Of a stretch of DNA of 64,000 nucleotides, positions 17,304 through 43,553 are shown one piece after another. This DNA comes from a bacterium (GTDB lineage Bacteria; Patescibacteriota; Saccharimonadia; Saccharimonadales; SZUA-47). The stretch lies in NCBI GenBank assembly GCA_037138655.1, contig JBAXHY010000001.1:6221-70220 (forward strand), read 5' to 3'. The notes under the pieces were generated by a model that saw only the letters and a list, made by a program, of their open reading frames with translations, made no database searches and had not been told where the DNA came from. Position 1 is the first letter of the stretch. Each line of letters begins with the position of its first letter. The translations under genes were made by a program, and so were the position numbers.

Positions 17304-17772
17304 ACCATAACCTTAGTTTCTTTAATGCTCTAAACTGCATAACTCGTACGTTAGCTTCGGTGTGTCCAGTCTGCTTTGCAGTTTCCTGCACCGAAGCTCG
17401 TTCAATAAAACGCCAGTGAATAATTTCACGCAGTTCATCAGATAAGCTATCAAGCGCCACCAGAAGTGTCTTAACGTCTATTTGTCTGTCGATATCTTCT
17501 GCAGTATAGTCATGCACTTCGATTTCGGCATCTTCGCTTAGACGTTCTTCGGACTTTTTTCGATAACTATCGATGATTGTACGCCTGGCAATAGTATAAA
17601 GCCAAGCTTTAGGAAATTTACCGTCAAAAGTTTCACGTTTTTCCCAAGCCTTTGTAAACACTGTGCTTACTATATCCGACGCCTTGTCTTCGTCGCCTAC
17701 GCGCCAAAAAGCAAATCGATATAAAGAATCGGCATGTTCATGAAATAATTTAGTAAATTCACGTTTGTTCAT
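17287..17772 (-). CDS. ECF (sigma-70 family, group 4) RNA polymerase sigma factor
   Basis: Region 2 (FxxxWxxxxTIARRxxIDxYRKK) and region 4 HTH (ETAKQTGHTEANVRVMQFRALKKLR). Confidence 0.85.
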   Translation of the reverse strand: MNKREFTKLFHEHADSLYRFAFWRVGDEDKASDIVSTVFTKAWEKRETFDGKFPKAWLYTIARRTIIDSYRKKSEERLSEDAEIEVHDYTAEDIDRQIDVKTLLVALDSLSDELREIIHWRFIERASVQETAKQTGHTEANVRVMQFRALKKLRLWYEKRQ

Positions 17773-18512: not shown

Positions 18513-19373
18513 TTAAACTTTCGGCTGCTTGGTTGTTTTTTGTTTTGTATTAACTACAGGTATATCTTTGATAGTATTTATATGCTTTTTGCCGTGTCTT
18601 AATAAGTATAAAACAAATGCAATAGTTCCACATGCAACAGCAAAACTTAGCAAATAACCGCCAAATAACTGCTGCACTGCCTTTAATACCGCATCTATTA
18701 ATCCGTTAGCTTTAACATCGGCTGAACCAGACTTTAATTTATCGGCCAATTTGGCTGGCAATAATATAATTGCACCCCAAAAGACAAAGAACCAAATACT
18801 CGTATGTAAAAATATTCTGCCGATTCTTCGTAGCTTTTGACCTTTTTCTGCAACATACCATTCTAACAATAAAAGAGCTACAAACACTACTGGACCAATA
18901 ATTTTTAATATCTTTAGCCGGTCATAAGCTTTTGGTAATTTATCTAAATTACCGTCTTTATTTAGTTCTATTGGAGTAGCAAAGTTTTTATCTATATCCG
19001 TGCCTACATCTACACCACTTGCCCTTAGTTTAGCCGGAAAGTCACTTATATCTACGACTGGTTGCGGGGTTCCAAGACGCATATACGTCGCAATATTATT
19101 AGATATTAGCTGTAATTTTTCTGCAACATAATCGGACGTTACAATTTTAGAAATTTTAGCTTTCATATCTGCTTTTTCAGCTGGGCTAGCATCTTTGGTG
19201 GCTTCTTCTGGAAGTAGTTTGGCAATCTCTACTGTTACCCCGGCATCCTTTAATGAAGGGACTAATTTACTTGGATTTAAAATTACACCGTCAATAAACC
19301 AAATATAAAATGTTGCTACCAAACTAAAGACCGCTAAAGTAATCAAAAAATGAGACAATATTTTTTTAAACAT
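18513..19373 (-). CDS. Hypothetical integral membrane protein
   Basis: Multiple predicted TM helices, no family recognised. Confidence 0.4.
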   Translation of the reverse strand: MFKKILSHFLITLAVFSLVATFYIWFIDGVILNPSKLVPSLKDAGVTVEIAKLLPEEATKDASPAEKADMKAKISKIVTSDYVAEKLQLISNNIATYMRLGTPQPVVDISDFPAKLRASGVDVGTDIDKNFATPIELNKDGNLDKLPKAYDRLKILKIIGPVVFVALLLLEWYVAEKGQKLRRIGRIFLHTSIWFFVFWGAIILLPAKLADKLKSGSADVKANGLIDAVLKAVQQLFGGYLLSFAVACGTIAFVLYLLRHGKKHINTIKDIPVVNTKQKTTKQPKV

Positions 19374-19400: not shown

Positions 19401-22043
19401 TTATAGTTCGCCCCAATTTTCACCAATAGATACATCGACTCTTAGGTTTACGCCAAGTTTTGGATAAATGTTTTCCATAGTGTTTTTAAGTATTTCCGCT
19501 ACGTTGTCTGCGTCTGCTTTTTTGCATTCTATTAGTATACTGTCGTGTATTTGCAAAAGCTGTGTCGCACCTTTTGGAAGTAATTTATCTACAGCGGTCA
19601 TTGCCATTTTAGTAAGATCCGCCGCTGTACCCTGAATTGGCATATTTATTGCTGCTCTAAATGCACCTTCTCTGACCATAAAGTTAGGAGATTTAGCATC
19701 TGGAGTCGGTCGCCTTCTGCCTAGTAGTGTCTCTACGTATCCTCTTTTGCTTGCTTGTTCCCTAAACACAGTTATCATTTCTTTTAGTTTTGGTCGTACT
19801 GCAAAATATTTGTCTATAAATACTTTTGCTTCGGCCATAGTTATGCCTGCACCGGCGCTTAAGCCAAAAGTACCCTGACCGTATAAAATTCCAAAATTTA
19901 CCGCCTTGGCAGCGTAGCGCATTTCTTTTGTAACTTGGTCTGATGGAATTCCATTAATTAGTGCTGCTGTTTCGGTGTGAATGTCTCTGTCATTATTAAA
20001 CGCCTCTATCATAGGTTTGTCATTGCTCATTGCGGCGGCTATACGAAGTTCGAACTGACTATAATCGGCACTGACTAATACGTTACCTATTTCTGCTATA
20101 AAACCTTTACGAATTTCTCTACCTAGTTCTGTTCTAACGGGTATGTTTTGTAAGTTTGGATCGGTACTGCTTAGTCGCCCTGTTGCAGCAATGGTTAAGT
20201 TAAAGGTTGTATGAACTCGGTCTTTTTTGTCTGCCATAGTTGGCAAAGTGTCTACGTAAGTACTTTTTAGTTTTGTAAATTCACGGTAATTAGTTATGCA
20301 TTCTATAATAGGATGCACCCCTTTTAGCTTGTCCAAAACGTCACTTGCCGTACTGTAATGTCCAGATTTTCCTTTTTTGGTAACAGATGTTGAAAGGGCT
20401 AATTTATCAAATAGTATCTCGCTTAATTGACTTGGACTACTAATATTAAACTCTTGGTCTGCAAAACCATAAATTGTTTGTTCAATATCACTTATTCTTC
20501 CTTCAAGGTCTGCGCTAAAGTTTGCAAAAAATCCTGGATTTATTTTTATACCGGCTCTTTCCATGCGCGCCAAAACTGGTATTACGGGCCAGTCGACAGT
20601 TTGGGCACACATAATAAGACTAGTTACTTCACTTATCTGTTCGCCCTGAATGTTTGCAAGAGCCGTAATAACGGACACTAATTCTGATGCTCTTGCTAAA
20701 AGTTGGTCGTTGTCTAGATCTTCTAAATTACCTTCGTAGCCTAAATCTCTAGATGCAATATCGGTTAATGTTTGTTCCCTAGCTAAGCTATTTACTATAA
20801 ATGAACCAACCAATGTATCGTGCGAAACCTCTGGGATTGATAGCCCTAGTTCTAAAAGTACTTTAAAGCTACCTTTAAGATCATGCCCAATAACTTCTGA
20901 TATTTTAGGTAAAACAATGTTCTTTACGGTACGTAAATCAACAGTGTAGACATGCTCACTATCTGACAAAATTAGTACCGTAGGTTCGGTACCATGTTTG
21001 CCAGCGCTTGTAGCATGCAAAACTACAGTTCCCTGCAATTTTAAGTCTTTTAACTGATTAGGATTAACTACATTTACAACTGGAAGTTCGTGCAAATCAA
21101 CCAACCCACCACTAATAAGCGGGCCTTTAATTGTGTGCTCTGCGTGTTGTTCGGCGGTCATTTGCATGCCGTTAGGCAGGTTGCGAAGTAAACTCCTAAA
21201 TTCTAATCTAATTAAAATCTCTTTTAGTCTGACGGCGTCTAACTTATTAACATCCATTTCTGTTAAATCTAGTTCGATTGGTGCGTCGTCATACAAACAA
21301 GCTACCTTTTTGCTCATGTAGGCTAGATCTTTTCCTGCTACTAATTTTTTAGCTAAACTGTCTTTAATTAGGCTTACATTATCGTAAATGCCGTCTAGAG
21401 TTTTGTATTTTTGAAGTAAATCTATTGCACCTTTTTCGCCTATTCCAGGAACGCCTGGAATATTATCGGATCCGTCCCCTTTAAGTGACTTTAGGTCCAA
21501 AAATTGGTCAACCCCAATACCATATTTTGCTTCAAATGCGCTTTCATCGAACCGCTCAATATTAGTAAGACCTTTTTTTAAGGCATACATATGGGTTAGC
21601 GGACCAACGCATTGCAGCATATCTAGGTCACTACTTATAAGCATTGTTTCAATACCCTCTTTGCTGGCACGCTTGGCGAGGCCGCACATAATATCGTCGG
21701 CTTCATAGTCGTCTAGTTCGTATAACGGCCAATTAAAAGCCTCTAATAATTCGTGCAAAATAGGAATTTGAGTATAAAAATCAGGGGGTGCTGGTTTGCG
21801 ACCTGCTTTATATTCAGGATAAATCTCTAGTCGTCGTCGAATGTTAGTTTTTGGTTTGTCCCACGCCACACAAACATAATCAGGTTTAAGCCTTTTAATT
21901 AGTTCTAGCGCCATAGCAGCGAATCCGTATACTCCACCGGTGGGAGTTCCGTCTTTGGTGGTAAGATTAGGCATCGCATAATAGCCTCGGTAAAAAACGC
22001 TCTTACCGTCAATTATCGCTAACTTTTTGGGTGCTTCACTCAT
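19401..22043 (-). CDS. polA: DNA polymerase I
   Basis: 880 aa; 5'-3' exonuclease N-terminus, polymerase motifs (RRxAKAVNFGILYGQG, QIHDSILIE). Confidence 0.92.
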   Translation of the reverse strand: MSEAPKKLAIIDGKSVFYRGYYAMPNLTTKDGTPTGGVYGFAAMALELIKRLKPDYVCVAWDKPKTNIRRRLEIYPEYKAGRKPAPPDFYTQIPILHELLEAFNWPLYELDDYEADDIMCGLAKRASKEGIETMLISSDLDMLQCVGPLTHMYALKKGLTNIERFDESAFEAKYGIGVDQFLDLKSLKGDGSDNIPGVPGIGEKGAIDLLQKYKTLDGIYDNVSLIKDSLAKKLVAGKDLAYMSKKVACLYDDAPIELDLTEMDVNKLDAVRLKEILIRLEFRSLLRNLPNGMQMTAEQHAEHTIKGPLISGGLVDLHELPVVNVVNPNQLKDLKLQGTVVLHATSAGKHGTEPTVLILSDSEHVYTVDLRTVKNIVLPKISEVIGHDLKGSFKVLLELGLSIPEVSHDTLVGSFIVNSLAREQTLTDIASRDLGYEGNLEDLDNDQLLARASELVSVITALANIQGEQISEVTSLIMCAQTVDWPVIPVLARMERAGIKINPGFFANFSADLEGRISDIEQTIYGFADQEFNISSPSQLSEILFDKLALSTSVTKKGKSGHYSTASDVLDKLKGVHPIIECITNYREFTKLKSTYVDTLPTMADKKDRVHTTFNLTIAATGRLSSTDPNLQNIPVRTELGREIRKGFIAEIGNVLVSADYSQFELRIAAAMSNDKPMIEAFNNDRDIHTETAALINGIPSDQVTKEMRYAAKAVNFGILYGQGTFGLSAGAGITMAEAKVFIDKYFAVRPKLKEMITVFREQASKRGYVETLLGRRRPTPDAKSPNFMVREGAFRAAINMPIQGTAADLTKMAMTAVDKLLPKGATQLLQIHDSILIECKKADADNVAEILKNTMENIYPKLGVNLRVDVSIGENWGEL

Positions 22044-22080: not shown

Positions 22081-22626
22081 CTAAGCGGCAAATTCACGAG
22101 CAAATTGTAGCACGTACCCAAGCCTAAGTTCTTCGTACGTTTTTCGTCCTATAAACCTATAAACATCGCCGTCGTATTCACCTAAAACTGGTGGCATATT
22201 TAAAGACTCATTTACAGACAATATCGCTCCCGAATCAATTACATCAATCTGAACCGAATTGGCAGTAATTGGCTGCCCGTCCCTGACTCCTATTTTTATA
22301 AGAGGTGGTTTTTGAAGTGTTACCAAAAGTCTTGCTTTGACTGTTTTAATTGTAATTTCGCCGTTGTCTTCTTCTATAACAGTCAAGGGATTCGCAATGT
22401 TAGTTGGTGGTTCAAATTGATATTCCACAAGTCTGCTTGTTCCAATTTGCATCTTTAAATACGAAGTACCAAACTTGGTCATGCTAGCATCCAAATATTC
22501 TACTTCTATTCCCTGCAATAATCCCCAATATGGAATTTCGTTGCCTGCTCCTAAAGTTAACGCATCGGCAACAAACTGTAAGTCTGCTGCGATTGGGTGT
22601 TGTTCGTAAGAAATAAATTCACTCAT
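22081..22626 (-). CDS. Hypothetical protein
   Basis: 181 aa, no recognisable motif. Confidence 0.35.
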   Translation of the reverse strand: MSEFISYEQHPIAADLQFVADALTLGAGNEIPYWGLLQGIEVEYLDASMTKFGTSYLKMQIGTSRLVEYQFEPPTNIANPLTVIEEDNGEITIKTVKARLLVTLQKPPLIKIGVRDGQPITANSVQIDVIDSGAILSVNESLNMPPVLGEYDGDVYRFIGRKTYEELRLGYVLQFAREFAA

Positions 22627-22686: not shown

Positions 22687-25455
22687 ATGGGTGGGGTAAA
22701 AACAGATACGTTAGACAGTTATAGGTTAAGTACGGCCGATTCTTTGGTTCAATATCAGTCAAAAATAGACGGATTAACAGATTCCGAGGTACAACTGCGC
22801 CAAGAAAAATTTGGTGCTAATAAATTATACTCCTCAAAAAGTGACAATTTAGCAATTCGTTTTATAAGACAATTCAAAGATTTAATGTTGCTTCTACTTT
22901 TACTTTCGGCAGCTTTTTCTTTTGCTATTAACGATAAACGAACCTGCATTATTTTATTGGCGATAGTTTTTATTAATGCTTTAATCGGATTTTCGCAGGA
23001 ATATAAGGCCGAAAAAGTAATGGAATCCCTAGAAAAGCTAATAGTTCCTTTGGCTAAGGTTAAACGAGGCGGTAAATTAGGTGAACTACCTAGTGAGATG
23101 TTGATTCCTGGTGACATTATATATATAGAAGAAGGCGACAGCGTTCCTGCCGATGCCCGCGTAATAGAAGAAAACGAACTAAGTACCAACGACTTTGCGT
23201 TAACTGGCGAATCAAATCCTTCGCGTAAATTTCAACACGCAATAGAGGCTCCTGTGCCACTTTCGGACAGACACAACTTAGTATACATGGGAACAACCGT
23301 AGCGACCGGTGACGCTACCTGTTTGGTTATAGCAACTGGGGCAAATACCGAACTTGGAAGAATAGCCAGCTTAAGCAGTGGCACAAAATCCGACCCCTCA
23401 CCTTTGCAAAAAGAAATGACAATACTTGCTACTACTATAACTAAATATACCCTTGGTTTAAGCGCAATACTTGCAGCTATTGCTTGGCAAGCAGACTTTG
23501 GATTACGAGATTCGTTTATTTTTGCTATAGGTATATCTAGTGCAATGATACCCCAGGGCTTGCCTGCCGAAGTCAACACAGCACTTGCAAGCGCCGCGGG
23601 TAGGTTAGCTAAAGATCGTGCCTTAGTTAAAAAATTAAGTGCCGTAGAAACTTTAGGTGCTACAAGTGTTATTTTAACCGACAAAACCGGTACGCTTACT
23701 AAAAACGAAATGACCGTACAACAACTAATTATAGGTAAAACTGTATATAACGTCAGTGGTATTGGTTACGAAAATAACGGTAAAATAAATTCAGATAAAA
23801 ACATCGCCTTAAATAATACCGAACTACAAAACCTTAAAGACTTTTTTGTAACTGGAGCTTTTGCAAGTAACGCCAAGATTCACGAACCTGACGACACTCA
23901 CGATACCTGGTACTGCCTGGGCGACCCGACCGAAGGTGCGTTAATAACTTTAGCCAAAAAGTCTGGCATAATCATAGAACAAATAGAAAAAAGTCATAAA
24001 GAATTACGAGAACATCCATTTGATTCAGCAAGAAAAAGAATGTCCTCAATTAGGTTTTATGATGGAAACTTAACGGCATTCATGAAGGGTGCGCCTGAAC
24101 AAATACTAAAAGTATGTACCCATTATTGGGACGGTAAGTCAGTCCGAAAATTAACAGTACACGATATTCAAGATATTACCGCCCGAAACGATTTATGGGC
24201 CAGCGCCGCAATGCGTAACTTAGCCTTTGCAAAAAGAATATTTCCTGAAGACACAAAGCTAGAAAATTTAGACCTAGAAACTACAGAAAAAAATATGATT
24301 TTTATGGGCCTTGTAAGTATGATCGATCCACCCCGCGAGGAAGTACCAGAAGCCATGAAAGCAGCGCGGGCTGCAAATATACCAGTTAGTATAATAACTG
24401 GCGATAACGCTCTAACAGCCCGTGCAATAGCTGTTAGAGCAGGTTTGGCAGCTAATCCTAGCGAGCTAAAACTTATAGAAGGCGACAACCTACCAAACAT
24501 GAGCGACCAATCTGTTTTGGCGCTCATTGCTAATGGACAAGCAATATTTAGTAGAGTCGCTCCAGAAGATAAATTACGTATAGTAGAAATTGCAAAAAAA
24601 GCAGGTTTAATTGTGGCCGTAACTGGTGATGGAATTAATGACGCGCCAGCACTTAAAAGAGCTGACATTGGTGTAGCTATGGGAAAAACTGGAACAGATG
24701 TAGCCAAACAATCAGCCGATATTATTTTGTTGGATGATAGTTTTAACACGTTAGTAAATGCAGTACAAACAGGAAGAGTTATTTTTCAGAATATTAGAAA
24801 AGCCGCACTAAGCGCAATCACCAGTAATGGTGGCGAATTATTTGTTGTTTTGATTAGTTTAATTGCAAAAACTAAGTTTGGAATACCAATTGCTATTGGA
24901 GCTGTTCAAATTTTAGCAATCGATTTAATTGCAGAACTGTTCCCTATCGCTGCACTTGGCTGGGACCCCGCAGAAGGCGACTTAATGCACGAAAATCCGC
25001 GTAATTTAAATGATCATATATTAAACAAATCAAACCTATGGGACCTTGCCTGGAGCGGCGCGCTTATGGGCTCTTTTGGATACTTAAACTACATTTTATA
25101 TTTTGTACGTAACGATTTATCGCCTGCTCACTTTAGCAAGGCTACAGTAGCTTACGCTACAGCCACAACGCTTACCTACACTACTATTTGCTTGTGCCAA
25201 TTTGGTAGCATTTTTATACGTCGAATAAAGCCTGGACACAAATTACTAACTAGTTATTTATGGTCAAACAAAAAATTATTTATAGCTTTTGGAATATCTA
25301 TAACACTAATGATGTCGCTAATTTACTTACCGTTCATTCAGCCATATTTTGGTACCTATAACCTTGCATTGGGTGACTGGTTTTATGCAATATTAGCAGC
25401 TGTTTTATTTGTAACAATAAGACAAGGTGTGTTCAGACTAAAAAAACAATCCTAG
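22687..25455 (+). CDS. P-type cation-transporting ATPase (type II, Ca2+/Mg2+-like)
   Basis: DKTGTLT phosphorylation motif, TGDGINDAPALKRADIGVAMG hinge, PQGLPA in M4, 10 TM topology. Confidence 0.88.
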   Translation: MGGVKTDTLDSYRLSTADSLVQYQSKIDGLTDSEVQLRQEKFGANKLYSSKSDNLAIRFIRQFKDLMLLLLLLSAAFSFAINDKRTCIILLAIVFINALIGFSQEYKAEKVMESLEKLIVPLAKVKRGGKLGELPSEMLIPGDIIYIEEGDSVPADARVIEENELSTNDFALTGESNPSRKFQHAIEAPVPLSDRHNLVYMGTTVATGDATCLVIATGANTELGRIASLSSGTKSDPSPLQKEMTILATTITKYTLGLSAILAAIAWQADFGLRDSFIFAIGISSAMIPQGLPAEVNTALASAAGRLAKDRALVKKLSAVETLGATSVILTDKTGTLTKNEMTVQQLIIGKTVYNVSGIGYENNGKINSDKNIALNNTELQNLKDFFVTGAFASNAKIHEPDDTHDTWYCLGDPTEGALITLAKKSGIIIEQIEKSHKELREHPFDSARKRMSSIRFYDGNLTAFMKGAPEQILKVCTHYWDGKSVRKLTVHDIQDITARNDLWASAAMRNLAFAKRIFPEDTKLENLDLETTEKNMIFMGLVSMIDPPREEVPEAMKAARAANIPVSIITGDNALTARAIAVRAGLAANPSELKLIEGDNLPNMSDQSVLALIANGQAIFSRVAPEDKLRIVEIAKKAGLIVAVTGDGINDAPALKRADIGVAMGKTGTDVAKQSADIILLDDSFNTLVNAVQTGRVIFQNIRKAALSAITSNGGELFVVLISLIAKTKFGIPIAIGAVQILAIDLIAELFPIAALGWDPAEGDLMHENPRNLNDHILNKSNLWDLAWSGALMGSFGYLNYILYFVRNDLSPAHFSKATVAYATATTLTYTTICLCQFGSIFIRRIKPGHKLLTSYLWSNKKLFIAFGISITLMMSLIYLPFIQPYFGTYNLALGDWFYAILAAVLFVTIRQGVFRLKKQS

Positions 25456-26300
25456 TTTTTCTTAGACAAAATGCTGCGCTCAACTACGGTTCTAACAACT
25501 TGTCTTTTTTGGGGTTTAACCTTTTTTTCGAACACTATCAATGGGTCATTTTTAATTTGTAATGCCGTCCAATTATAGGAATCAACTGCCGTATGAAGCG
25601 GAACGGCTATTTTTTTAGGTATATAAATAAAGCCCTTATTGGCATCTGTTTGCCACTGCGCATATCTTAATAACTGGGCGTGCACAAAGTCAGCAAACAT
25701 CTTTGGTTTTGCCCTTGCTTCTTCTTCTGATAAGTTTTTTAGTCCGTAAACTTTAATATCATTAACAGGAAAATAACATCGCCCCATTTCGCTGTCGTCG
25801 GTAAGATCCCTTAAAAAATTAATATACTGCATAGCTCTGCCCTGCATTCGTACTGGTTCTAGCGCTTCTTCTGGAAGATTTAATATGCGTGCTACAAAAA
25901 GCCCAACAACTTCTGCCGTTCCGTATACGTATTCTAGGGTGTCTTTTAATGAGCGGTACTGGTGTTTTTGAATATCCCATCTCATACTTTTTAAAAACGC
26001 GTCTACCCATGCAGGATCACAACCGTGACGATGAACAATGTAAGCAATATTCGATAACGCTTTTTCACTTACAGAATCGTCTAATGGTGAAGTCACAAAA
26101 CCGTTTGCAAGTTCTGATTTTATCGTTGTCCATCTAACTTCGATATATTCAAATTTAGCTAAATTACTAGGTGTTTGGTCTACAAAATTATGTACTAAAT
26201 TTATAAATGAATACAACTTAAATACGTCATCACGCATTCCTTTAGGAAAAAATCTACTACTCCAGTAGTAAGTTAACCTTCCGTTTTTAAATATATTCAT
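25452..26300 (-). CDS. Squalene/phytoene synthase family protein (trans-isoprenyl diphosphate head-to-head condensing enzyme; CrtB/HpnD-like)
   Basis: Motifs YVYGTAEVVG (YxxxxAxxVG), GRAMQYINFLRDLTDD (GxAxQxxNIxRD), GRCYFP (GRxYLP). Confidence 0.7.
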   Translation of the reverse strand: MNIFKNGRLTYYWSSRFFPKGMRDDVFKLYSFINLVHNFVDQTPSNLAKFEYIEVRWTTIKSELANGFVTSPLDDSVSEKALSNIAYIVHRHGCDPAWVDAFLKSMRWDIQKHQYRSLKDTLEYVYGTAEVVGLFVARILNLPEEALEPVRMQGRAMQYINFLRDLTDDSEMGRCYFPVNDIKVYGLKNLSEEEARAKPKMFADFVHAQLLRYAQWQTDANKGFIYIPKKIAVPLHTAVDSYNWTALQIKNDPLIVFEKKVKPQKRQVVRTVVERSILSKKN

Positions 26301-26351: not shown

Positions 26352-27440
26352 CTACTTACTTCTTCCTAGTAAACTAGTTACAAGCAGATCTAAAAATTCT
26401 ATGCCACCCTCAGAAAAAACTCCAATACAACCTTTTAATGATTCTTTTGCCTTTGAAACATGTTCAATAGCCTTAGTCTGGGCAAAGTTTAACGCGCCTG
26501 TTTCTGTAAAAATTTCTTTACATCTAATAAATTCAATATACGTAAGTTTTTCGTTACCTAACATTTGAATCAAAAAGTTTTTGTCGCCGCTGTCGGACCT
26601 ATTCAAGGCTTCTACGGCAAGTACAGTCCGCTTGCCTTCACGAATATCATCCATAGGGCTCTTACCTGCTTCTTGCTCGCTAGCAAAAGTTCCTAATATG
26701 TCATCTGTAATCTGAAAAGCTCTACCTGCGTGCATCGAATACTCATGTACAGATTCAATAGTTTTTTTACTTGCACCAGCCAATGTCATGCCAAATTGCA
26801 GTGGGTTTAAAAAGGTGTACTGTGCGGTCTTCCATTCTAATACTTGATCCACAGCTCGCTCACTAACTTCGTCTACAACCTCATTAAATATGTCGTTTAT
26901 TTGTCCGTGACCCGTAACAATTATTGCATCGTTTAGTAACGACAGTGCCCTTAATTTAAGGTGTGCATCTGTATTTAATGAAGCAATCAGACCCTGCGCA
27001 TAATGAGAACCTATAAGTGCAGCATTTATAGCAATAGACTCACCAAAATGACCAGAATCGCCTGCTAACTGATTTTGCTTATGATAGTTTTCTAGCAATA
27101 CATGGGCGGACGGACCACCCCGGCGAATTTTGGACTTATCCATAATGTCATCTAATACCAAAATATAGGCGTGCGTCATTTCGATTGCACTTGCCGCTTG
27201 AAGTATTATTTTTTTATTACTTCCACCGCACATTTCGTAGCCAACAATCGTTAAAGCACCTCGTATGCGCTTGCCACCTCTTGCCAGAACCTGAGTATAG
27301 GCGTCTACACCTACTGCCGAATATTCGGTAAATTTTTGTACTGTCTGTTCTTTTAAATTTTTGCTATGAAAAATAATTTCATCGTCGATTTCATTTTTAT
27401 AATTTATTAATCTGGATGTATGTTCGCTTAACTTACTCAT
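26352..27440 (-). CDS. Polyprenyl diphosphate synthase (GGPP-synthase-like trans-prenyltransferase)
   Basis: FARM LVLDDIMDKSKIRRG, second Asp-rich motif FQITDDILG, GKxxGxDIREGKRT. Confidence 0.8.
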   Translation of the reverse strand: MSKLSEHTSRLINYKNEIDDEIIFHSKNLKEQTVQKFTEYSAVGVDAYTQVLARGGKRIRGALTIVGYEMCGGSNKKIILQAASAIEMTHAYILVLDDIMDKSKIRRGGPSAHVLLENYHKQNQLAGDSGHFGESIAINAALIGSHYAQGLIASLNTDAHLKLRALSLLNDAIIVTGHGQINDIFNEVVDEVSERAVDQVLEWKTAQYTFLNPLQFGMTLAGASKKTIESVHEYSMHAGRAFQITDDILGTFASEQEAGKSPMDDIREGKRTVLAVEALNRSDSGDKNFLIQMLGNEKLTYIEFIRCKEIFTETGALNFAQTKAIEHVSKAKESLKGCIGVFSEGGIEFLDLLVTSLLGRSK

Positions 27441-38176: not shown

Positions 38177-38359
38177 ATGGGTACTAAACAATCATATGTA
38201 AATAAAAATGCAAACGTAGCTTTAAACACATTCTTAAATCCAACAGGTCCAAGTGACGCAGCAACAGCATCATTACGCGCAAAAAGAGCAGCCGACTGGA
38301 ACGCCTTTGTAACAAACTATCAGCACAGTCACGTAGCTGGTAAAAGCTCAGGCCGATAA
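38177..38359 (+). CDS. Small hypothetical protein (60 aa) in its own transcription unit
   Basis: ORF bracketed by a consensus promoter and an intrinsic terminator; no signal peptide, no known family. Confidence 0.4.
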   Translation: MGTKQSYVNKNANVALNTFLNPTGPSDAATASLRAKRAADWNAFVTNYQHSHVAGKSSGR

Positions 38360-38375
38360 ATACAACTAGTTAAAA

Positions 38376-38406
38376 AACAGCTCCGTTAAGGGGCTGTTTT
38401 TGTTTT
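38376..38406. terminator. Bidirectional intrinsic terminator
   Basis: cagctcc-gttaa-ggggctg hairpin followed by TTTTTGTTTT; the stop codon of the convergent photolyase-like gene lies in the loop. Confidence 0.75.
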
Positions 38407-39894
38407 GGTATTCAAAAAGTCTGCTGCGCGGTATCCTATAATACGTCGCCTATCTTCGTTCATGCGTTTTAACATAACTACAGTGGTGTTCATGTGAGTA
38501 TTTTTAGACAATGATTCGCTGTGTTTTTCTATAAAACCCCAATACAAACCGTCCCAAATATCGCACCAATCGTCTTTTTCATAATGGCTCATCTGCAAAA
38601 TATAATTACTACCACTAATATTGGGCTTTACTGTCATACCGCCCCCTTCACCGTCAGAAAACTGACTCATTCCGTAAACACCAGGAACTACTGCCCAATC
38701 GTAAGCATCAATAGTCATTTCCATAAACCATTGATAAACTTCATTTGGATTTATCTGTGATAAAAACATAATGTTGCCTATTATCATCAGGCGTTCAACA
38801 TGATGTAAATAACTACGCGCCTGCACCTTTTTAATAACGTCGTCAACTGGCGGAATTCCTGTAGTACCTTCATACCAATCCTGCGTTAGACTTCGTTTAT
38901 GCTCGTAATTATTGCTAGACCTTAAAGACACTCCTTGGGTTTGATACACCGCTCTGGTGTATTCTCGCCATCCCAATACTTGCCTTACAAATGATTCAAG
39001 ACTTGGAAGATTTACTGGTGATTTTTCGTGTCTTTGAATCGCCAAATCTACAACCTGTTTTGGAGTAAGCAAGCCTGTGTTTAATGCAGAAGAAATTGCA
39101 CTATGGTATGACCAAGGCGCTGTTCCGTCTATAGCTTCTTGGTACAATCCAAAATCTTCTAACCTATTTTTTAAAAATTCATTTAACCAAACCTCGGCTT
39201 CTTCATGGTTTGTTGCCCAGTTAAATTCCGAATCTACGCCTGGGTTATTAGGAAAGTTTTTTGCCACATAATGTCTGGCTTCTTCAACAAATTCATTACT
39301 TCCGTAAACTTCAAAAGTCGGTAATGTATGTTCTTTTGGTAGGCGTTTTCGGCTTTCTTGATCAAAGCTCCATTTTCCTCCGACTGGCTTATAGTTATCG
39401 TCAATTAATACATTAAACCGTTCGCGTTGCCACTGATAAAAATCCAAAAAAGGTTTGTTTTTTGATGAGCTTAAATAGTCTGTAACTTCTTGTTTTGTTA
39501 AATAAAAATTTGGAGTGTCTAAAAATTGAAGTTTTGGAATTTCTGGGATAGTATTAGCCGCTACCTGAAGTCTTCTTTGAAGTACATCGTCTACTACGTC
39601 AAAAACTGTTGCGCTCTCATAACCATGCAATCGCTGCAATATGTCACCACTATCTACAATATCTTTAAATTCGATATATTCTACTTCGTACCCTGCTGGC
39701 CATAAAACTTCTTTTATATAGCGCCGCATACTTGCCCTATGCAATATAAGTTTTTGCTTATGAAAAAATACTGGGTACTTTTGGTCTGTGCCAAAATACA
39801 ATGGATCTTCGATTAAAAATATAGTGCCAACGCCTTGCGGTAGATACTCTTTTTTAAATAATTGGTGAGGATAAATTAAATGTGCTGATTTCAT
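38386..39894 (-). CDS. Cryptochrome/photolyase-family protein of the FeS-BCP / COG3046 (bacterial (6-4) photolyase PhrB/CryB-like) type, apparently without the Fe-S cysteine ligands
   Basis: N-terminal pattern (IYPHQLF...FFHKQKLILHRASMRRYIKE) typical of COG3046. About 500 aa. Only one Cys in the whole protein. Confidence 0.6.
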   Translation of the reverse strand: MKSAHLIYPHQLFKKEYLPQGVGTIFLIEDPLYFGTDQKYPVFFHKQKLILHRASMRRYIKEVLWPAGYEVEYIEFKDIVDSGDILQRLHGYESATVFDVVDDVLQRRLQVAANTIPEIPKLQFLDTPNFYLTKQEVTDYLSSSKNKPFLDFYQWQRERFNVLIDDNYKPVGGKWSFDQESRKRLPKEHTLPTFEVYGSNEFVEEARHYVAKNFPNNPGVDSEFNWATNHEEAEVWLNEFLKNRLEDFGLYQEAIDGTAPWSYHSAISSALNTGLLTPKQVVDLAIQRHEKSPVNLPSLESFVRQVLGWREYTRAVYQTQGVSLRSSNNYEHKRSLTQDWYEGTTGIPPVDDVIKKVQARSYLHHVERLMIIGNIMFLSQINPNEVYQWFMEMTIDAYDWAVVPGVYGMSQFSDGEGGGMTVKPNISGSNYILQMSHYEKDDWCDIWDGLYWGFIEKHSESLSKNTHMNTTVVMLKRMNEDRRRIIGYRAADFLNTKTKTAP

Positions 39895-39924
39895 TACTTA
39901 CCATTGTGACATAAGCGTAATGAT

Positions 39925-41592
39925 TTACATAGATTCTGGTGCTTGAATGCCCAACAATTCTAAGCCTGTCTTTAAAACTTCGGCGTAGGTTTTAAGCAAC
40001 CCAACCTTTTGGGCTTCGCGGTCCGACCCAATTACTTTTTCGTTTTCATAAAATCTATTAAACACCTGGGTAAGTTCGTACAAGTAGGTACAGATATGAT
40101 GAGGCATTAGTTCGTACAGTACAACACTTATTACTTCTGGGAATTCGCTTACTTTTAGCGCAAGTGTTCGTTCGTGATCTGTAAAGTCAGTTGGCGACTC
40201 AGCTTTTTGTGTCGCTTTTTGCAAAATAGAACTTGCTCGTGCGTAGGCGTATTGTAAGTACGGACCACTGTTGCCGGCAACACTCACAGATTCTGCAGGG
40301 TCGTAAATAATGTCGCTACCAATACGCTGTTTTAAGAATGCATACTTTACAGCGCCCAATACAACCGACTTGTCGTCTTTGCCGCTTTGTTCTTGGTTAG
40401 CAGAACTTGCAGCTTCTAAAATATCTACAGCTCGCAGTATGTTGCCTTTACGGCTACTCATTTTTACGCCACCAGGTAGCTTAATAACTCCATGAGTTAA
40501 ATGAGTAGTACGTTCTGTGGCTTCTGGGTAAAAATTCGACAATACCTTCATTACTACTTTCATGTACTGTTCTATGTCGTTAGCTGTAATAATAAAACTT
40601 TGGTCAAATTTATAATCTTGCCATTTTGTTGCAGCCAAACCCAAATCTTTTGCTTCATAGGTTGGCAAACCATTACTATTCATAAATACGCGAGTATGAA
40701 GACCAAATTCTTCGCCCTTAAATACAACTGCGCCATCTGATTTTTCAAAAATGTTATCTTGCAGACCTTTGTTTACTATTTCTATACCAAGCGGCGTTAC
40801 TTCGCTTTCTGGCATATATTTTTCGAACGGCTGTATTTGAAGCTGCTCATATAATTTATCAAATCCTTCATAGCTCCATGTGCGACACGTCCAGTATATT
40901 TGCCCAAACGTGCTTTCATGATCTTTGGCTGTGTGAAGTTCGTACACTTTTTTATTTAATACAATTATTAACTGTTTAGCCTCTTCATTGGTTTCATAGG
41001 CTTCGTTACCTTCTACATACCTAGTGCTTAGCCATTCGAGTCTAGATTCTTTGTCTACGGATTGGAGTTTATCTGGATTTTCCCCGCCTAGTTCTTGCAA
41101 AATCGCCCACATAGTTTTGCCAACATGCAGTCCAACATCACCCCCAAAGTTGACTCTATGAACATTAGCACCGGCCGCTTGTAAAACATTTGCCACTACA
41201 TCACCTACAATACTGGTATACAAATGTCCGGCGTGAAGAACCTTAAAAGGGTTTGGGTCTGAATATTCTGCTACGACTACTTTGTCTTTTAGCGTCTGCT
41301 GGATTTTGGTACTGCTTTTAAGTAAATCTACTATTGCATTGTCTGCAAGACGAATGTTTAAAAACCCTGGACCTGCGACTGTTGCTTCAAAAATAGAACT
41401 ATTTGTTAATATTTCTGCAGAAATTTGCTCTGCTAATTCTTTGGGGTTTTTATTAAGTGAACCAGCAAGTTGCATAGCAACATTACTAGCAAAATCGCCA
41501 AAACGACTGTCAGGACGAGACAATACAATTTCTACATCCAATTTGTACAAATTATTTATTGCTTCTTTTAATATACTTTTTAATTGATCCAT
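39925..41592 (-). CDS. argS: Arginine--tRNA ligase
   Basis: HIGH-type motif (LHAGHLYTSIVGD), anticodon-binding DALR domain, 555 aa. Confidence 0.9.
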   Translation of the reverse strand: MDQLKSILKEAINNLYKLDVEIVLSRPDSRFGDFASNVAMQLAGSLNKNPKELAEQISAEILTNSSIFEATVAGPGFLNIRLADNAIVDLLKSSTKIQQTLKDKVVVAEYSDPNPFKVLHAGHLYTSIVGDVVANVLQAAGANVHRVNFGGDVGLHVGKTMWAILQELGGENPDKLQSVDKESRLEWLSTRYVEGNEAYETNEEAKQLIIVLNKKVYELHTAKDHESTFGQIYWTCRTWSYEGFDKLYEQLQIQPFEKYMPESEVTPLGIEIVNKGLQDNIFEKSDGAVVFKGEEFGLHTRVFMNSNGLPTYEAKDLGLAATKWQDYKFDQSFIITANDIEQYMKVVMKVLSNFYPEATERTTHLTHGVIKLPGGVKMSSRKGNILRAVDILEAASSANQEQSGKDDKSVVLGAVKYAFLKQRIGSDIIYDPAESVSVAGNSGPYLQYAYARASSILQKATQKAESPTDFTDHERTLALKVSEFPEVISVVLYELMPHHICTYLYELTQVFNRFYENEKVIGSDREAQKVGLLKTYAEVLKTGLELLGIQAPESM

Positions 41593-41765
41593 ATTAGTTC
41601 TATTCTATCTTATTAACTCAAAAACATACACGTCCAACTTCTTAAAGACAATAATATTGACTTACTTGGCTGCGGGATTTTACATAAAACTTACCTCTGT
41701 TTTAATGGTATACTTGGCTAATGGACAGATTACTAAATAAAATTGGTAGCACTGTAAGGGGCTGG

Positions 41766-42350
41766 ATGATTATTCCGGCAAAAGTATTAAATAGTCTATC
41801 TGGTGGACTCATAAAACCTAACCACATTACACTTGTTTCGTTACTTGGTCATATTTTAGTAATTTGGGCACTTTGGTACAGTCGACCTATATTAGCAGCT
41901 GTTTTATTGGCATTTTTTGGACTTATGGACAGCCTTGATGGTGCGTTAGCAAGATTGCAAAAAACAGCCTCGTTAAATGGAATGCTATACGACGCATCCA
42001 GCGATAGAGCTAAAGAAGTTCTTATATATGTAGGGCTAACTCAGTACGTTTTTGTTCATACAAACGACTTCATTTGGTTACCTGCGGCAGTTTTAGGTGG
42101 ATCGCTTGTTGTTAGTTACATAAAAGCCAAGGGTGAAATGGCACTTGCTAGTGTTAAAAAACACGATAAACAAATGCTTAACAAAATTTTTGCAGATGGA
42201 ATAGCCAGATACGAAGTCAGAATGGCAATTGTTGTTTTTGGCTTACTGGCTGGGCAAATAATTTTATCGCTATGGTTGTTGCTGGTACTTGTTGGATACA
42301 CTGCCCTGCAAAGAATTGTTCGCATATCTAGGGCTTTAAATAATGTATAA
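41766..42350 (+). CDS. CDP-alcohol phosphatidyltransferase family protein
   Basis: Signature DSLDGALARLQKTASLNGMLYDASSDR (D-x2-DG-x2-AR-...-G-x3-D-x3-D). Start moved to ATG 41766 (RBS AAGGGG), because the upstream ATG 41721 overlaps the -10 box. Confidence 0.8.
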   Translation: MIIPAKVLNSLSGGLIKPNHITLVSLLGHILVIWALWYSRPILAAVLLAFFGLMDSLDGALARLQKTASLNGMLYDASSDRAKEVLIYVGLTQYVFVHTNDFIWLPAAVLGGSLVVSYIKAKGEMALASVKKHDKQMLNKIFADGIARYEVRMAIVVFGLLAGQIILSLWLLLVLVGYTALQRIVRISRALNNV

Positions 42351-42996
42351 GGTCGACCTTCATACTCATTCTGTTGCTTCACCAGACGGAGGAATATCAC
42401 CAGAACAATATGCAAAAATATTAGAATCCGAAAAACTAGATTATATTGCAATCACCGACCACGACAGAATAGATTTTGCTTTAGGACTACAAAAAGCTCT
42501 TGGTGACCGTATTATCGTTGGGCAAGAAATAACTACTTCAGAAGGAGAGCTAATCGGTCTTTTTTTAAAAAGTCGCATTACTCCTAATTTATCTGCCCTA
42601 GAAACAGCGCATGCCATAAAAGATCAAGGTGGCTTAGTATACGTACCTCACCCGTTCGAGATTGTCCGAAAAGGCATTCAAATAGACAACCTCCAAAAAA
42701 TTACCGAACTTGTTGATATTATCGAAATTCATAATGGTCGAGCCCTTAATAACAAGCACTCATTAAAAGCAGCAACATGGGCAAAACTAAACAACAAATC
42801 TGGTGCATCAAGCAGCGACGCTCATGGATATAAAGGCTTGGGTTATAGCTACAGCGTCCTTAAAGAAGTCCCGGCAAGAGGCTCATTGGTTAGTAGCCTT
42901 AATATGACCGCATTGGCTCACAGACGCGCACCAGTCACTACATTTTTGTACCCCAAACTTAACCGCTTAGGCAAAAAAATAGGGATTAAAAAATAA
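42343..42996 (+). CDS. PHP-domain (polymerase/histidinol phosphatase-like) metal-dependent phosphoesterase
   Basis: N-terminal DLHTHS...AITDHD PHP motifs; overlaps the upstream gene by 8 nt and the downstream gene by the ATGA arrangement. Confidence 0.75.
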   Translation: MYKVDLHTHSVASPDGGISPEQYAKILESEKLDYIAITDHDRIDFALGLQKALGDRIIVGQEITTSEGELIGLFLKSRITPNLSALETAHAIKDQGGLVYVPHPFEIVRKGIQIDNLQKITELVDIIEIHNGRALNNKHSLKAATWAKLNNKSGASSSDAHGYKGLGYSYSVLKEVPARGSLVSSLNMTALAHRRAPVTTFLYPKLNRLGKKIGIKK

Positions 42997-43553
42997 TGTT
43001 AAATCATTTATTGTTTGGACTTTGGTATTTTTTACCTGCTGGTTTTGCTAATGCGGCTCCTGTTTTTGCTAAAAAAATTCCCCTGTTAAATAAGCTTGAT
43101 ATGCCAATTGATTGTCATAAATCTTTTAAAGGAAAACGTATTTTTGGTGACCATAAAACTGTAAGAGGTTTTGTTGCGGGCACACTAATAGGATCTGTCA
43201 CCGGACTGTTGCAATACGTTGCCTACTTTCATTTTGGATGGTTTCAGAATTTTAGTTTAGTTATATACACAAGTGTCTGGCAATGCCTTTTATTGGGCGC
43301 TCTGCTTGGTTTTGGTGCATTATTTGGCGATGCAGTTAAAAGCTTTTTTAAAAGACAATTTTCTGTTCCTTCCGGAAAAGCTTGGTTTCCTTTTGACCAA
43401 ATAGACTACATTATTGGGGGCTTACTGTTTGGTTCTATATTAATAGACTTGCCTCATTCAGAATACATCTGGATTGTACTGGTTTGGTTTTTAATACACC
43501 CATTGGCAACATTTATAGGATGGCTAATGGGATTAAAAGACTCGCCAATTTAA
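42996..43553 (+). CDS. CDP-archaeol synthase (CarS, DUF46)-like CTP:lipid-phosphate cytidylyltransferase
   Basis: 185 aa, 5 predicted TM helices. N-terminal FLPAGFANAAPV...FGDHKTVRGF and C-terminal GDAVKSFFKRQ...FDQIDYIIGG match my recollection of archaeal CarS signatures, but no database comparison could be run. The bacterial CdsA C-terminal PGHGG/DRxDS signature is absent. Confidence 0.6.
   Translation: MLNHLLFGLWYFLPAGFANAAPVFAKKIPLLNKLDMPIDCHKSFKGKRIFGDHKTVRGFVAGTLIGSVTGLLQYVAYFHFGWFQNFSLVIYTSVWQCLLLGALLGFGALFGDAVKSFFKRQFSVPSGKAWFPFDQIDYIIGGLLFGSILIDLPHSEYIWIVLVWFLIHPLATFIGWLMGLKDSPI

What the first reader, a model, noticed from the sequence alone, without database searches (positions are those of the whole stretch)
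38386..39894. FeS-BCP/COG3046-type photolyase-like protein that has lost the [4Fe-4S] cysteine ligands
The N-terminal pattern (HKQKLILHRASMRRY and others) and the roughly 500-aa length identify the bacterial (6-4) photolyase/CryB family. Its known members bind a [4Fe-4S] cluster through four conserved Cys in the C-terminal catalytic domain. This protein contains a single cysteine in total (in ...YEKDDWCDIWDG). It therefore cannot bind the cluster, and it represents an iron-sulfur-free variant of the family, or a cryptochrome-like derivative, in a small genome.
Basis: partly seen in the sequence, partly recalled or inferred. Interest (0 to 1): 0.55.

Follow-up and report, generated by a model that had tools for sequence, protein, structure and literature searches.

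The report
Iron-sulfur-free photolyase homolog in Saccharibacteria
This gene encodes a light-dependent DNA-repair-type flavoprotein of the bacterial (6-4) photolyase family that lacks the iron-sulfur cluster, but that cluster-free subtype is already described (for example in Prochlorococcus), so the finding is real and mostly ordinary; the one unusual point is that a tyrosine needed for binding damaged DNA is replaced.

Summary
Window 38386-39894 (-) is an intact 502-aa ORF with one cysteine (Cys444). It belongs to the prokaryotic (6-4) photolyase / FeS-BCP family: Pfam DPRP E=5.6e-40, PDB hits PhrB/CryB E~1e-60, AF2 model TM 0.89 to PhrB.

Of the four PhrB ligands, Cys350 is Pro349. Cys438 and Cys441 lie in a 10-residue deletion. 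Only the Cys454 position may survive, as Cys444, which is C/S/A in relatives. The protein cannot hold a [4Fe-4S] cluster.

This is not new. About 30% of the family is reported to lack the cysteines (PromaPL, 'subgroup M', cyanobacterial Phr2). The query shares the same Pro, the same deletion and the W-C-[D/E]-x-W-D-G-L motif with Prochlorococcus and Synechococcus orthologs (40% identity). All 270 nearest database proteins also lack the motif.

The gene is under strong purifying selection (dN/dS 0.05, like the adjacent argS) in a Saccharimonadia-type (CPR) genome.

One extra point: the lesion-binding Tyr424 of PhrB is Asn425 here. Among the syntenic Saccharimonadia orthologs, Tyr424 and catalytic His366 were lost repeatedly, while FAD-site residues and evolutionary rate stayed constrained. 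That hints at a drift towards a cryptochrome-like role or a changed substrate.

Verdict: new member of a known kind, modest interest.

The parts
38386..39894 (-). CDS, 502 aa: Fe-S-free (PromaPL/Phr2-type) member of the prokaryotic (6-4) photolyase family
   Evidence: ORF. Pfam DPRP + FAD_binding_7. PDB phmmer E~1e-60 to 9hnk/4dja/3zxs/8ijy/7ykn. AF2 pLDDT 89, pTM 0.91. Foldseek TM 0.89 to 4dja. dN/dS 0.05.
39217..39879 (-). N-terminal DPRP (antenna-binding alpha/beta) domain, residues 6-226; includes the FHKQKLILHRASMRRY motif (39718-39765) and Lys48 (= PhrB Lys47)
   Evidence: PF04244 E=5.6e-40, profile positions 2-224 of 224. Lys48 and His45 are >=95% conserved in relatives.
38686..38976 (-). 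Core of the FAD-binding helical domain, residues 307-403 (GWREY ... DAYDW)
   Evidence: PF03441 E=1.4e-08. Arg368, Asp396, Asp399 and Trp389 are conserved in all relatives.
38848..38850 (-). Pro349, at the position of Fe-S ligand Cys350 of PhrB
   Evidence: Pro in 119/120 close homologs, 133/150 representatives and 77/77 genome loci.
38800..38805 (-). His364-His365 (= PhrB His365/His366; the catalytic His is retained)
   Evidence: H366N abolishes repair in PhrB (PMC4619345).
38620..38622 (-). Asn425, at the position of the lesion-binding Tyr424 of PhrB
   Evidence: Gap-free local alignment KPYAASGNYI / KPNISGSNYI. Y424F abolishes lesion binding and repair in PhrB (PMC4619345).
38539..38589 (-). 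Remodelled former cluster site, residues 436-452 (SHYEKDDWCDIWDGLYW): 10-residue deletion that removed Cys438/Cys441; invariant Trp443; sole Cys444 (38563-38565), a possible vestige of Cys454
   Evidence: Cys444 is C 86 / S 22 / A 9 of 120 in close relatives; Trp443 is 120/120. Model pLDDT is 95-98 over residues 431-450.
38373..38401 (.). 12-bp hairpin flanked by A-run and T-run, overlapping the stop codon: terminator-like, between the convergent phr gene and the 60-aa ORF
   Evidence: pattern match only; sequence read.
39925..41592 (-). argS (arginyl-tRNA synthetase), ending 30 bp upstream of the photolyase-like gene on the same strand; possibly co-transcribed
   Evidence: Pfam. The argS-phr adjacency is conserved in relatives. 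Co-transcription is inferred, not shown.

Best explanation
The ORF encodes a member of the already-described iron-sulfur-free subgroup (PromaPL / cyanobacterial Phr2 / 'subgroup M') of the prokaryotic (6-4) photolyase (FeS-BCP/CryPro) family. It sits in a Saccharimonadia-type CPR genome.

Shown: it has the two-domain photolyase fold. The cluster-binding loop is deleted. Cys350 is Pro. The former cluster site is a short helix-turn-helix carrying an invariant Trp443. The FAD-site residues, the catalytic His (His365), Leu369, Arg368, the electron-transfer Trp389 and the Mg2+/lesion Asp178 are all retained. The gene evolves under purifying selection as strong as the neighbouring argS.

Inferred mechanism: the protein binds FAD (and probably an antenna cofactor in the conserved N-terminal pocket), is photoreduced via Trp389, and uses blue/near-UV light to act on UV-damaged DNA. 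Most likely it repairs (6-4) photoproducts, as PromaPL does weakly in vitro.

Caveat: the Tyr needed for high-affinity lesion binding in PhrB (Tyr424) is Asn425 here, and Asp254 is Glu253. Repair efficiency or substrate may therefore differ. I rate the classification at about 0.9 and actual (6-4) photorepair at about 0.5.
For: Family and fold: Pfam DPRP 138 bits plus FAD_binding_7. The top PDB sequence hits are all prokaryotic 6-4 photolyases, E from 1e-60 to 2e-51, while the next class (E. coli CPD photolyase) scores 6e-3. Model pLDDT is 89 and pTM 0.91. Foldseek gives TM 0.85-0.89 to 4dja, 8ijy, 3zxs, 9hnk and 7ykn, against about 0.55 for other photolyase classes.

No cluster: Cys350->Pro, Cys438/441 deleted, one Cys in total.

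Membership in the known Fe-S-free clade: all 150 representative clusters scoring 288-649 bits lack the motif, whereas PhrB scores 205 bits. Prochlorococcus and Synechococcus orthologs share the Pro, the identical deletion and the WC[DE]xWDGL motif. BLASTP to a Prochlorococcus ortholog gives 40% identity over the full length, E=7e-125, and the ex-cluster stretch (residues 436-452) aligns without a gap.

Literature: the Fe-S-free clade and PromaPL activity (10.1101/366252); subgroup M (PMC9178010); Phr2 of Synechococcus RS9916 gives light-dependent UV survival in E. coli (PMC9426592).

Functional gene: dN/dS 0.05, compared with argS 0.05, ABC transporter 0.07 and gdh 0.04 for the same genome pair.

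Catalytic residues retained.
Against: Tyr424 of PhrB is reported conserved in all 464 FeS-BCPs examined. Y424F raises the lesion KD from 13 nM to 18 uM and gives 0% repair (PMC4619345). The query has Asn there, and Glu replaces the Mg2+-site Asp254.

PromaPL activity in vitro was very low, 0.012 versus 405 min-1 for PhrB. The authors of PMC9426592 suggest that Fe-S-free Phr2 may instead be CPD photolyases.

No biochemical data exist for any Saccharimonadia member. No solved structure of any Fe-S-free member was found in the PDB searches.
Confidence: 0.85

Rival explanations
1. Cryptochrome-like or otherwise repurposed flavoprotein. The protein still binds FAD and responds to light but no longer binds or repairs (6-4) lesions. 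It would act as a light or redox sensor, or on another substrate, in a Saccharimonadia lineage that is shedding the repair function.
For: Tyr424->Asn425 and Asp254->Glu253 in the query.

Among the 120 closest homologs (those with a taxon name are Candidatus Saccharimonadales/Patescibacteria), Tyr424 is kept in only 83, against 76/77 in loci that are almost all from other phyla (Fisher p=2e-8). His366 is kept in 99, against 143/150 representatives (p=1e-3). The losses are scattered over the NJ tree, so there were many independent events.

The columns that are >=95% conserved in canonical members but degenerate in His-lost members are D179, Q253, H366, V402, G409, M410, Y424 and N429. Of these, D179 (Mg2+-dependent lesion binding), H366 (catalysis), M410 (contacts His366) and Y424 (lesion binding) have documented roles in PhrB; the rest lie next to them in sequence. 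Meanwhile 114 other columns stay >=95% conserved, including FAD-site Arg369/Asp397, Trp390 and the N-terminal pocket.

The His/Tyr-less versions occupy the same argS-phr-ABC locus. Their dN of 0.16 matches housekeeping neighbours (0.13-0.34) with saturated synonymous sites. They are therefore functional, not decaying. RsCryB, in the same family, has documented signalling roles (PMC9178010).
Against: The query itself keeps His365, Leu369, Met409, Asp178 and Tyr431, so it is at most an intermediate. Most eukaryotic (6-4) photolyases have Thr, not Tyr, at the Tyr424 position (PMC4619345), so a non-aromatic residue there does not by itself exclude repair. No partner or output domain is evident, and the neighbourhood is housekeeping genes.
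Confidence: 0.25
2. CPD photolyase. The Fe-S-free branch of this family repairs cyclobutane pyrimidine dimers rather than (6-4) photoproducts.
For: The authors of PMC9426592 propose this for Fe-S-free Phr2. Synechococcus phr2 gives about 10-fold light-dependent survival to UV-B/UV-C-treated E. coli lacking phr and lexA, where CPDs are the dominant lesion. In Saccharimonadia relatives that lost His366, the commonest replacement is Asn (9 of 21), which is the CPD-photolyase counterpart residue according to PMC4619345.
Against: PromaPL repaired a (6-4) substrate in vitro. The query keeps the (6-4)-type His365/Leu369 pair rather than the Asn/Met of CPD photolyases. The closest structures are all (6-4) enzymes.
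Confidence: 0.1
3. Artefact or pseudogene. The missing cysteines reflect sequencing or assembly error, or a decaying gene.
For: None found.
Against: The ORF is intact. The same residues occur in independent assemblies at 98% identity. dN/dS is 0.05. The signature is shared by several hundred proteins across phyla.
Confidence: 0.01

Closest known systems
PromaPL (Prochlorococcus marinus MED4, Q7V2P7 / WP_011132061) and cyanobacterial Phr2; 'subgroup M' of prokaryotic 6-4 photolyases
   Same: Same family and same Fe-S-free subtype. The query is 40% identical over the full length to a Prochlorococcus ortholog. Both have Cys350->Pro, the identical 10-residue deletion of the Cys438/Cys441 loop, the W-C-[D/E]-x-W-D-G-L motif with one residual Cys, and Tyr391->Phe. 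At the PhrB Glu403 position the nearest Fe-S-free representatives mostly have Met, and the query has Val.
   Different: The Prochlorococcus and Synechococcus loci, and 76 of the 77 loci overall, keep Tyr424 and Asp254. The query has Asn425 and Glu253. The host is a Saccharimonadia-type CPR bacterium rather than a phototroph.
Agrobacterium PhrB (4DJA), Rhodobacter CryB (3ZXS), Caulobacter, Vibrio and Synechococcus elongatus 6-4 photolyases (FeS-BCPs)
   Same: Same two-domain fold (TM 0.85-0.89), the DPRP N-terminal domain, catalytic His366, Leu370, Arg369, Trp390, Asp179 and Tyr430.
   Different: Only 25-28% identity. No [4Fe-4S] ligands. Tyr424->Asn, Tyr391->Phe, Glu403->Val, Trp342->Tyr (with Trp340 adjacent). 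The D-loop His43 is Phe and the floor residue Ile51 is His, so the antenna cofactor is probably not bound as in PhrB.
NewPHL / short photolyase-like (SPL) proteins
   Same: Another photolyase-family lineage in which some subgroups have the four Cys and others do not (PMC8476157).
   Different: [quoted passage not shown]

Membership tests
Prokaryotic (6-4) photolyase family (FeS-BCP / CryPro; Pfam DPRP + FAD_binding_7) | N-terminal DPRP (PF04244) domain | tested here: met
   E=5.6e-40, 138 bits against a cut-off of 22.1, profile positions 2-224 of 224.
Prokaryotic (6-4) photolyase family (FeS-BCP / CryPro; Pfam DPRP + FAD_binding_7) | C-terminal FAD-binding helical domain and overall fold as in PhrB/CryB | tested here: met
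   PF03441 34.8 bits against a cut-off of 27. phmmer E~1e-60 to 4dja, 9hnk and 3zxs. AF2 model TM 0.85-0.89 to all solved family members, against about 0.55 for other classes.
Prokaryotic (6-4) photolyase family (FeS-BCP / CryPro; Pfam DPRP + FAD_binding_7) | Catalytic His366 with Leu370 (PhrB numbering) | tested here: met
   His365 and Leu369 are present.
Prokaryotic (6-4) photolyase family (FeS-BCP / CryPro; Pfam DPRP + FAD_binding_7) | Lesion-binding Tyr424 (reported conserved in 464/464 FeS-BCPs; Y424F is inactive) | tested here: not met
   Asn425 in the query and in its 98% and 80% relatives. Role of Tyr424 from PMC4619345.
Prokaryotic (6-4) photolyase family (FeS-BCP / CryPro; Pfam DPRP + FAD_binding_7) | Mg2+/lesion-binding Asp179 and Asp254 | tested here: inconclusive
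   Asp178 is present. Asp254 is replaced by Glu253, which keeps the carboxylate on a longer side chain. Role from 10.1101/366252.
Prokaryotic (6-4) photolyase family (FeS-BCP / CryPro; Pfam DPRP + FAD_binding_7) | Light-driven repair of (6-4) photoproducts; FAD binding | not testable with these tools
   Needs recombinant protein, UV/vis spectra and repair assays.
FeS-BCP subtype proper (iron-sulfur-containing) | Four Cys ligands (PhrB C350, C438, C441, C454) with spacing 86-89 / 2 / 12-15 | tested here: not met
   Pro349 at C350; a deletion spans C438/C441; only Cys444 lies at or next to C454; one Cys in the whole protein. Spacing rule from PMC3204975.
Fe-S-free subgroup (PromaPL / Phr2 / 'subgroup M') | Absence of the four Cys while belonging to the prokaryotic 6-4 photolyase clade | tested here: met
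   Definition from 10.1101/366252 and PMC9178010.
Fe-S-free subgroup (PromaPL / Phr2 / 'subgroup M') | Shared derived characters with Prochlorococcus/Synechococcus members (same indel, same replacements) and closer similarity to them than to Fe-S-containing members | tested here: met
   Identical 10-residue deletion, Pro at C350 and the WC[DE]xWDGL motif. 40% identity, E=7e-125, to a Prochlorococcus ortholog against 25-28% to PhrB/CryB. Fe-S-free representatives score 288-649 bits against 205 bits for PhrB. A full ML phylogeny with many Fe-S-containing outgroups was not done; only an NJ tree rooted on PhrB.
Cryptochrome (photosensor without repair activity) | Loss of repair activity with retention of FAD photochemistry; a signalling output | not testable with these tools
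   Only indirect evidence: Tyr424 is lost in the query, and His366/Tyr424 are lost in constrained orthologs.

The most novel reading that the evidence does not exclude
In Saccharimonadia (CPR bacteria) the Fe-S-free photolyase ortholog at the conserved argS-phr-ABC locus is repeatedly turning from a DNA-repair enzyme into something else: a cryptochrome-like light or redox sensor, or an enzyme with a different lesion specificity. Lesion-pocket residues (Tyr424, His366, Met410, Asp179/Asp254) are replaced many times independently. His366 often becomes the CPD-type Asn, and Tyr424 recurrently becomes Asn. The FAD site, the electron-transfer Trp, the antenna domain and the overall substitution rate all stay under housekeeping-level constraint. 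The window's protein (His kept, Tyr424->Asn, Asp254->Glu) would be an early or intermediate stage of that transition.
Probability: 0.25. Interest if true: 0.6.

Novelty: new member of a known kind. Interest (0 to 1): 0.3.

Why it matters
The headline claim, an iron-sulfur-free FeS-BCP-type photolyase, is already in the literature, so it changes nothing for the field. It adds two modest things.

First, the cluster-free subtype is common and strongly conserved in ultra-small, host-dependent Saccharimonadia. In such genomes an enzyme that needs neither Fe-S assembly nor a complex repair pathway would plausibly be a cheap way to handle UV damage.

Second, this lineage offers a natural series of orthologs that have lost the residues shown by mutagenesis to be essential in PhrB, yet remain under purifying selection. 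That series could be used to ask how photolyases become cryptochromes, and what the Fe-S cluster and Tyr424 really contribute.

No solved structure of any Fe-S-free member turned up in the PDB searches here. A compact, well-predicted protein like this one would be a reasonable target.

Tried and rejected
1. Sequencing error or pseudogene. Rejected: intact ORF, independent assemblies, dN/dS 0.05.

2. Independent, lineage-specific loss of the cluster in this genome. Rejected: the same Pro, deletion and motif occur in Prochlorococcus, Synechococcus, Bacteroidota, Planctomycetota, Actinomycetota and others.

3. Cys444 as a functional residual ligand. Rejected as essential: it is C/S/A among close relatives and C in only 57/150 representatives.

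4. Finding the PromaPL sequence or names via cluster look-ups of AT-rich representatives gave no taxon names. The supplement of PMC9178010 held nothing useful. The link to Prochlorococcus was made through the genome-contig scan instead.

5. Literature on photolyases in Saccharibacteria/CPR: no paper in the held library combines the terms.

6. Rfam scan of the window: only one tRNA, no riboswitch or rRNA that would help with taxonomy or cofactor regulation.

7. dN/dS for the more distant pairs could not be computed because synonymous sites are saturated (pS 0.77-0.93). I compared dN with neighbouring genes instead.

8. The conservation figure for His366 in the 77 genome loci is biased, because the scan pattern contained 'HH'. 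I used the phmmer representatives for that comparison instead.

9. The antenna pocket (Glu37/Arg108 ceiling, D loop) was only partly assessed, because I had PhrB residues 41-504 only.
Full report
**1. Observation**

The ORF lies at window 38386..39894 on the minus strand. It has an ATG start, encodes 502 aa, and has a stop two codons upstream of the start.

The protein has exactly one cysteine, Cys444, in YEKDDWCDIWDG. A low cysteine count is not in itself striking in this genome. Long ORFs of the window hold 0.6% Cys, so about 3 are expected here and Poisson P(<=1) is about 0.2. The argument must therefore rest on positions, not counts.

**2. Family**

Pfam finds a full-length DPRP domain (PF04244, E=5.6e-40, residues 6-226) and FAD_binding_7 (PF03441). 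NCBIfam gives only weak sub-threshold hits to classical photolyase and cryptochrome models.

Against PDB sequences, the eight best matches are all prokaryotic (6-4) photolyases: Caulobacter 9hnk, Agrobacterium PhrB 4dja, S. elongatus 8ijy, Rhodobacter CryB 3zxs and Vibrio 7ykn. Their E-values run from 1e-60 to 2e-51. The next class, E. coli CPD photolyase, reaches only 6e-3.

An AlphaFold2 model built from 63 homologs has pLDDT 89 and pTM 0.91. It superposes on those same structures with TM 0.85-0.89, against about 0.55 for other photolyase and cryptochrome classes.

**3. The cluster ligands**

PhrB binds its [4Fe-4S] cluster through Cys350, Cys438, Cys441 and Cys454 (PMC3204975).

- Cys350 corresponds to Pro349 in the query.
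- Cys438 and Cys441 lie in a loop (CDTCRYDPKERLG) that is simply absent, a 10-residue deletion.
- Cys454 aligns with, or one residue from, the sole Cys444.

With one possible ligand left and the loop gone, the protein cannot hold the cluster. The remodelled segment (residues 431-450) is predicted with pLDDT 95-98 as a short helix-turn-helix. It contains Trp443, which is invariant in 120/120 close homologs and present in 140/150 representatives. Trp443 replaces Ala453 of PhrB. I infer, but could not check on coordinates, that it helps fill the former cluster cavity.

**4. Not an artefact, not specific to this genome**

All 120 closest database proteins (55-98% identity) show Pro at the Cys350 position (119/120) and the same deletion. 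Those with names are Candidatus Saccharimonadales or Patescibacteria.

An exhaustive phmmer search of 1.84 billion cluster representatives gave 150 top hits at 288-649 bits. Every one lacks the four-Cys motif and has the deletion. PhrB-type proteins score only about 205 bits. Named members of these clusters include Actinomycetes, Henriciella/Hyphomonas and Doudnabacteria.

A scan of GTDB species genomes returned 80 loci, and 77 of them yielded a full protein. These span Saccharibacteria, Planctomycetota, Verrucomicrobiota, Bacteroidota, Actinomycetota, Prochlorococcus and marine Synechococcus. All 77 have Pro at the Cys350 position, and all 21 loci whose ex-cluster stretch I inspected show the same deletion.

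**5. Already known**

The preprint 10.1101/366252 states that about 30% of the proteins in the FeS-BCP group lack the four Cys and form a single clade. It showed weak, Mg2+-dependent (6-4) repair by the Prochlorococcus representative PromaPL. PMC9178010 calls the group 'subgroup M' and proposes that FeS-BCPs be treated as a subtype of 'prokaryotic 6-4 photolyases'. PMC9426592 equates PromaPL with cyanobacterial Phr2. It reports that Phr2 of marine Synechococcus lacks the Cys, and that phr2 of strain RS9916 gives light-dependent UV survival to E. coli.

I tested membership directly. The query is 40% identical (E=7e-125) over its full length to the Prochlorococcus ortholog in L052. The alignment runs without a gap through the ex-cluster region: MSHYEKDDWCDIWDGLYW against MSNFKSGPWCEIWDGLFW. 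Both share the single residual Cys.

The residual Cys is variable. It is C 86 / S 22 / A 9 of 120 in close homologs and C in 57/150 representatives, so it is best read as a dispensable vestige of Cys454.

The 'loss' is therefore ancient and clade-wide. The window's protein is a new member of a described subtype.

**6. Is it functional, and what does it do?**

Against two independent assemblies carrying a 98%-identical protein, dN/dS is 0.05. This equals the adjacent argS (0.05) and is similar to the ABC transporter (0.07) and glutamate dehydrogenase (0.04).

Retained residues, in PhrB numbering, are: catalytic His366 (His365 here), His365, Arg369, Leu370, Met410, Trp390, Tyr399, Tyr430, Asp179 and Lys47 of the antenna pocket.

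Clade-wide differences from PhrB are Tyr391->Phe, Glu403->Met/Val, and Trp342->Tyr with an adjacent invariant Trp340.

The most likely mechanism is that of an FAD-dependent, light-driven photolyase. This step is inferred.

**7. The unusual detail**

Tyr424 of PhrB was reported conserved in all 464 FeS-BCPs examined. The Y424F mutant loses lesion binding (KD 13 nM to 18 uM) and shows 0% repair. H366N is likewise inactive (PMC4619345).

The query has Asn425 at this position. The local alignment is gap-free: KPYAASGNYI against KPNISGSNYI. It also has Glu253 in place of the Mg2+-site Asp254. Its 98% and 80% relatives share the Asn.

Across the 120 Saccharimonadia-type homologs:

- Tyr424 is kept in 83, against 76/77 in loci that are almost all from other phyla (Fisher p=2e-8).
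- His366 is kept in 99, against 143/150 unbiased representatives (p=1e-3).
- The losses are scattered over an NJ tree, which implies many independent events. Asn is the commonest replacement at both sites.

The degenerate versions are orthologs. They sit in the same argS-(DUF5665)-phr-ABC transporter-...-DnaG-RpoD neighbourhood as the window's gene. They are constrained: between two genomes whose copies lack both His and Tyr, phr dN is 0.16. The neighbours give 0.16 (ABC), 0.13 (RNase T), 0.25 and 0.34, with synonymous sites saturated.

Eight columns are >=95% conserved in canonical members but degenerate in the His-lost ones: D179, Q253, H366, V402, G409, M410, Y424 and N429. D179, H366, M410 and Y424 have documented lesion-binding or catalytic roles in PhrB, and the others are their sequence neighbours. 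A further 114 columns stay >=95% conserved in both groups, including the FAD-site Arg and Asp residues, Trp390 and the N-terminal domain.

This is the signature expected when a photolyase is repurposed rather than decaying. The query is at most an intermediate, because its His is kept. Most eukaryotic (6-4) photolyases have Thr at the Tyr424 position, so Asn does not prove loss of repair.

**8. Context**

The gene starts 30 bp after argS on the same strand. It ends in a 12-bp hairpin flanked by A and T runs, shared with a convergent, conserved 60-aa ORF. The 64-kb window otherwise holds housekeeping genes of a small genome. I found no second photolyase among the 40 ORFs scanned with Pfam, which cover most but not all of the window's long ORFs. 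No Fe-S assembly genes or riboflavin genes were found either.

The taxon is inferred from the homologs' names and from the best GTDB hit (Candidatus Saccharibacteria, 51% identity). No rRNA is present in the window.

**9. Verdict**

Novelty: new member of a known kind. Interest is modest, at 0.3. The most novel reading still open is recurrent repurposing of the enzyme in Saccharimonadia. I give it a probability of about 0.25 and an interest of about 0.6 if true.

Noticed in passing
window 25452-26300 (-) and 26352-27440 (-): A squalene/phytoene synthase (PF00494, E=1.7e-37) sits directly next to a polyprenyl synthetase (PF00348, E=7.8e-54). This is a possible carotenoid or other isoprenoid pair in a reduced CPR-type genome. 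It may relate to light exposure, as the photolyase homolog does.
   Followed up: no
window 38177-38359 (+): A 60-aa ORF runs convergent to the photolyase gene and shares its terminator-like hairpin. It is conserved in relatives: 97% identical in L083, and a 48-aa version with the shared motif FLNPTGPSDAATAS...DW..FV.NY in L081, whose phr is 80% identical. A weaker 49-aa version is in L088. It was not scanned against Pfam here, and the gene calls on relatives' contigs list no Pfam family for it.
   Followed up: partly
L081 1239-1499, L087 1318-1581, L088 7589-7852 (relatives); absent from window 39895-39924: Most relatives carry an 86-87-aa DUF5665 gene on the opposite strand between argS and the photolyase gene. 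The window and its 98% relatives have only a 30-bp spacer there.
   Followed up: no
window 41721-43553 (+): A cluster of CDP-alcohol phosphatidyltransferase, a PHP-domain protein and a CarS-like CDP-archaeol synthase homolog (PF01864, E=2.1e-32), divergent from argS. The cluster is syntenic in relatives.
   Followed up: no
relatives P0015-P0023, P0027, P0031, P0032, P0072 and others; loci L086-L088: Intact, syntenic, slowly evolving Saccharimonadia orthologs lack the catalytic His366 (N/Q/S/P/A/D) and Tyr424 (N/A/S/K/G). Degenerate representatives also occur in Doudnabacteria (P0150) and in the verrucomicrobium Persicirhabdus sediminis (P0246).
   Followed up: partly
window 10930-12600, 15969-16580, 16632-17303, 18513-19373, 22081-22626 (all -): Five sizeable ORFs (181-556 aa) have no Pfam match at E<=1e-5. 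The 223-aa ORF overlaps the end of an ECF-type sigma factor gene (17287-17772), which suggests a possible anti-sigma partner.
   Followed up: no
window 14134-15090 (-) and 19401-22043 (-): Other DNA-repair and replication genes are in the window: Fpg/MutM glycosylase and DNA polymerase I. No uvrABC genes and no second photolyase were seen among the ORFs scanned.
   Followed up: no
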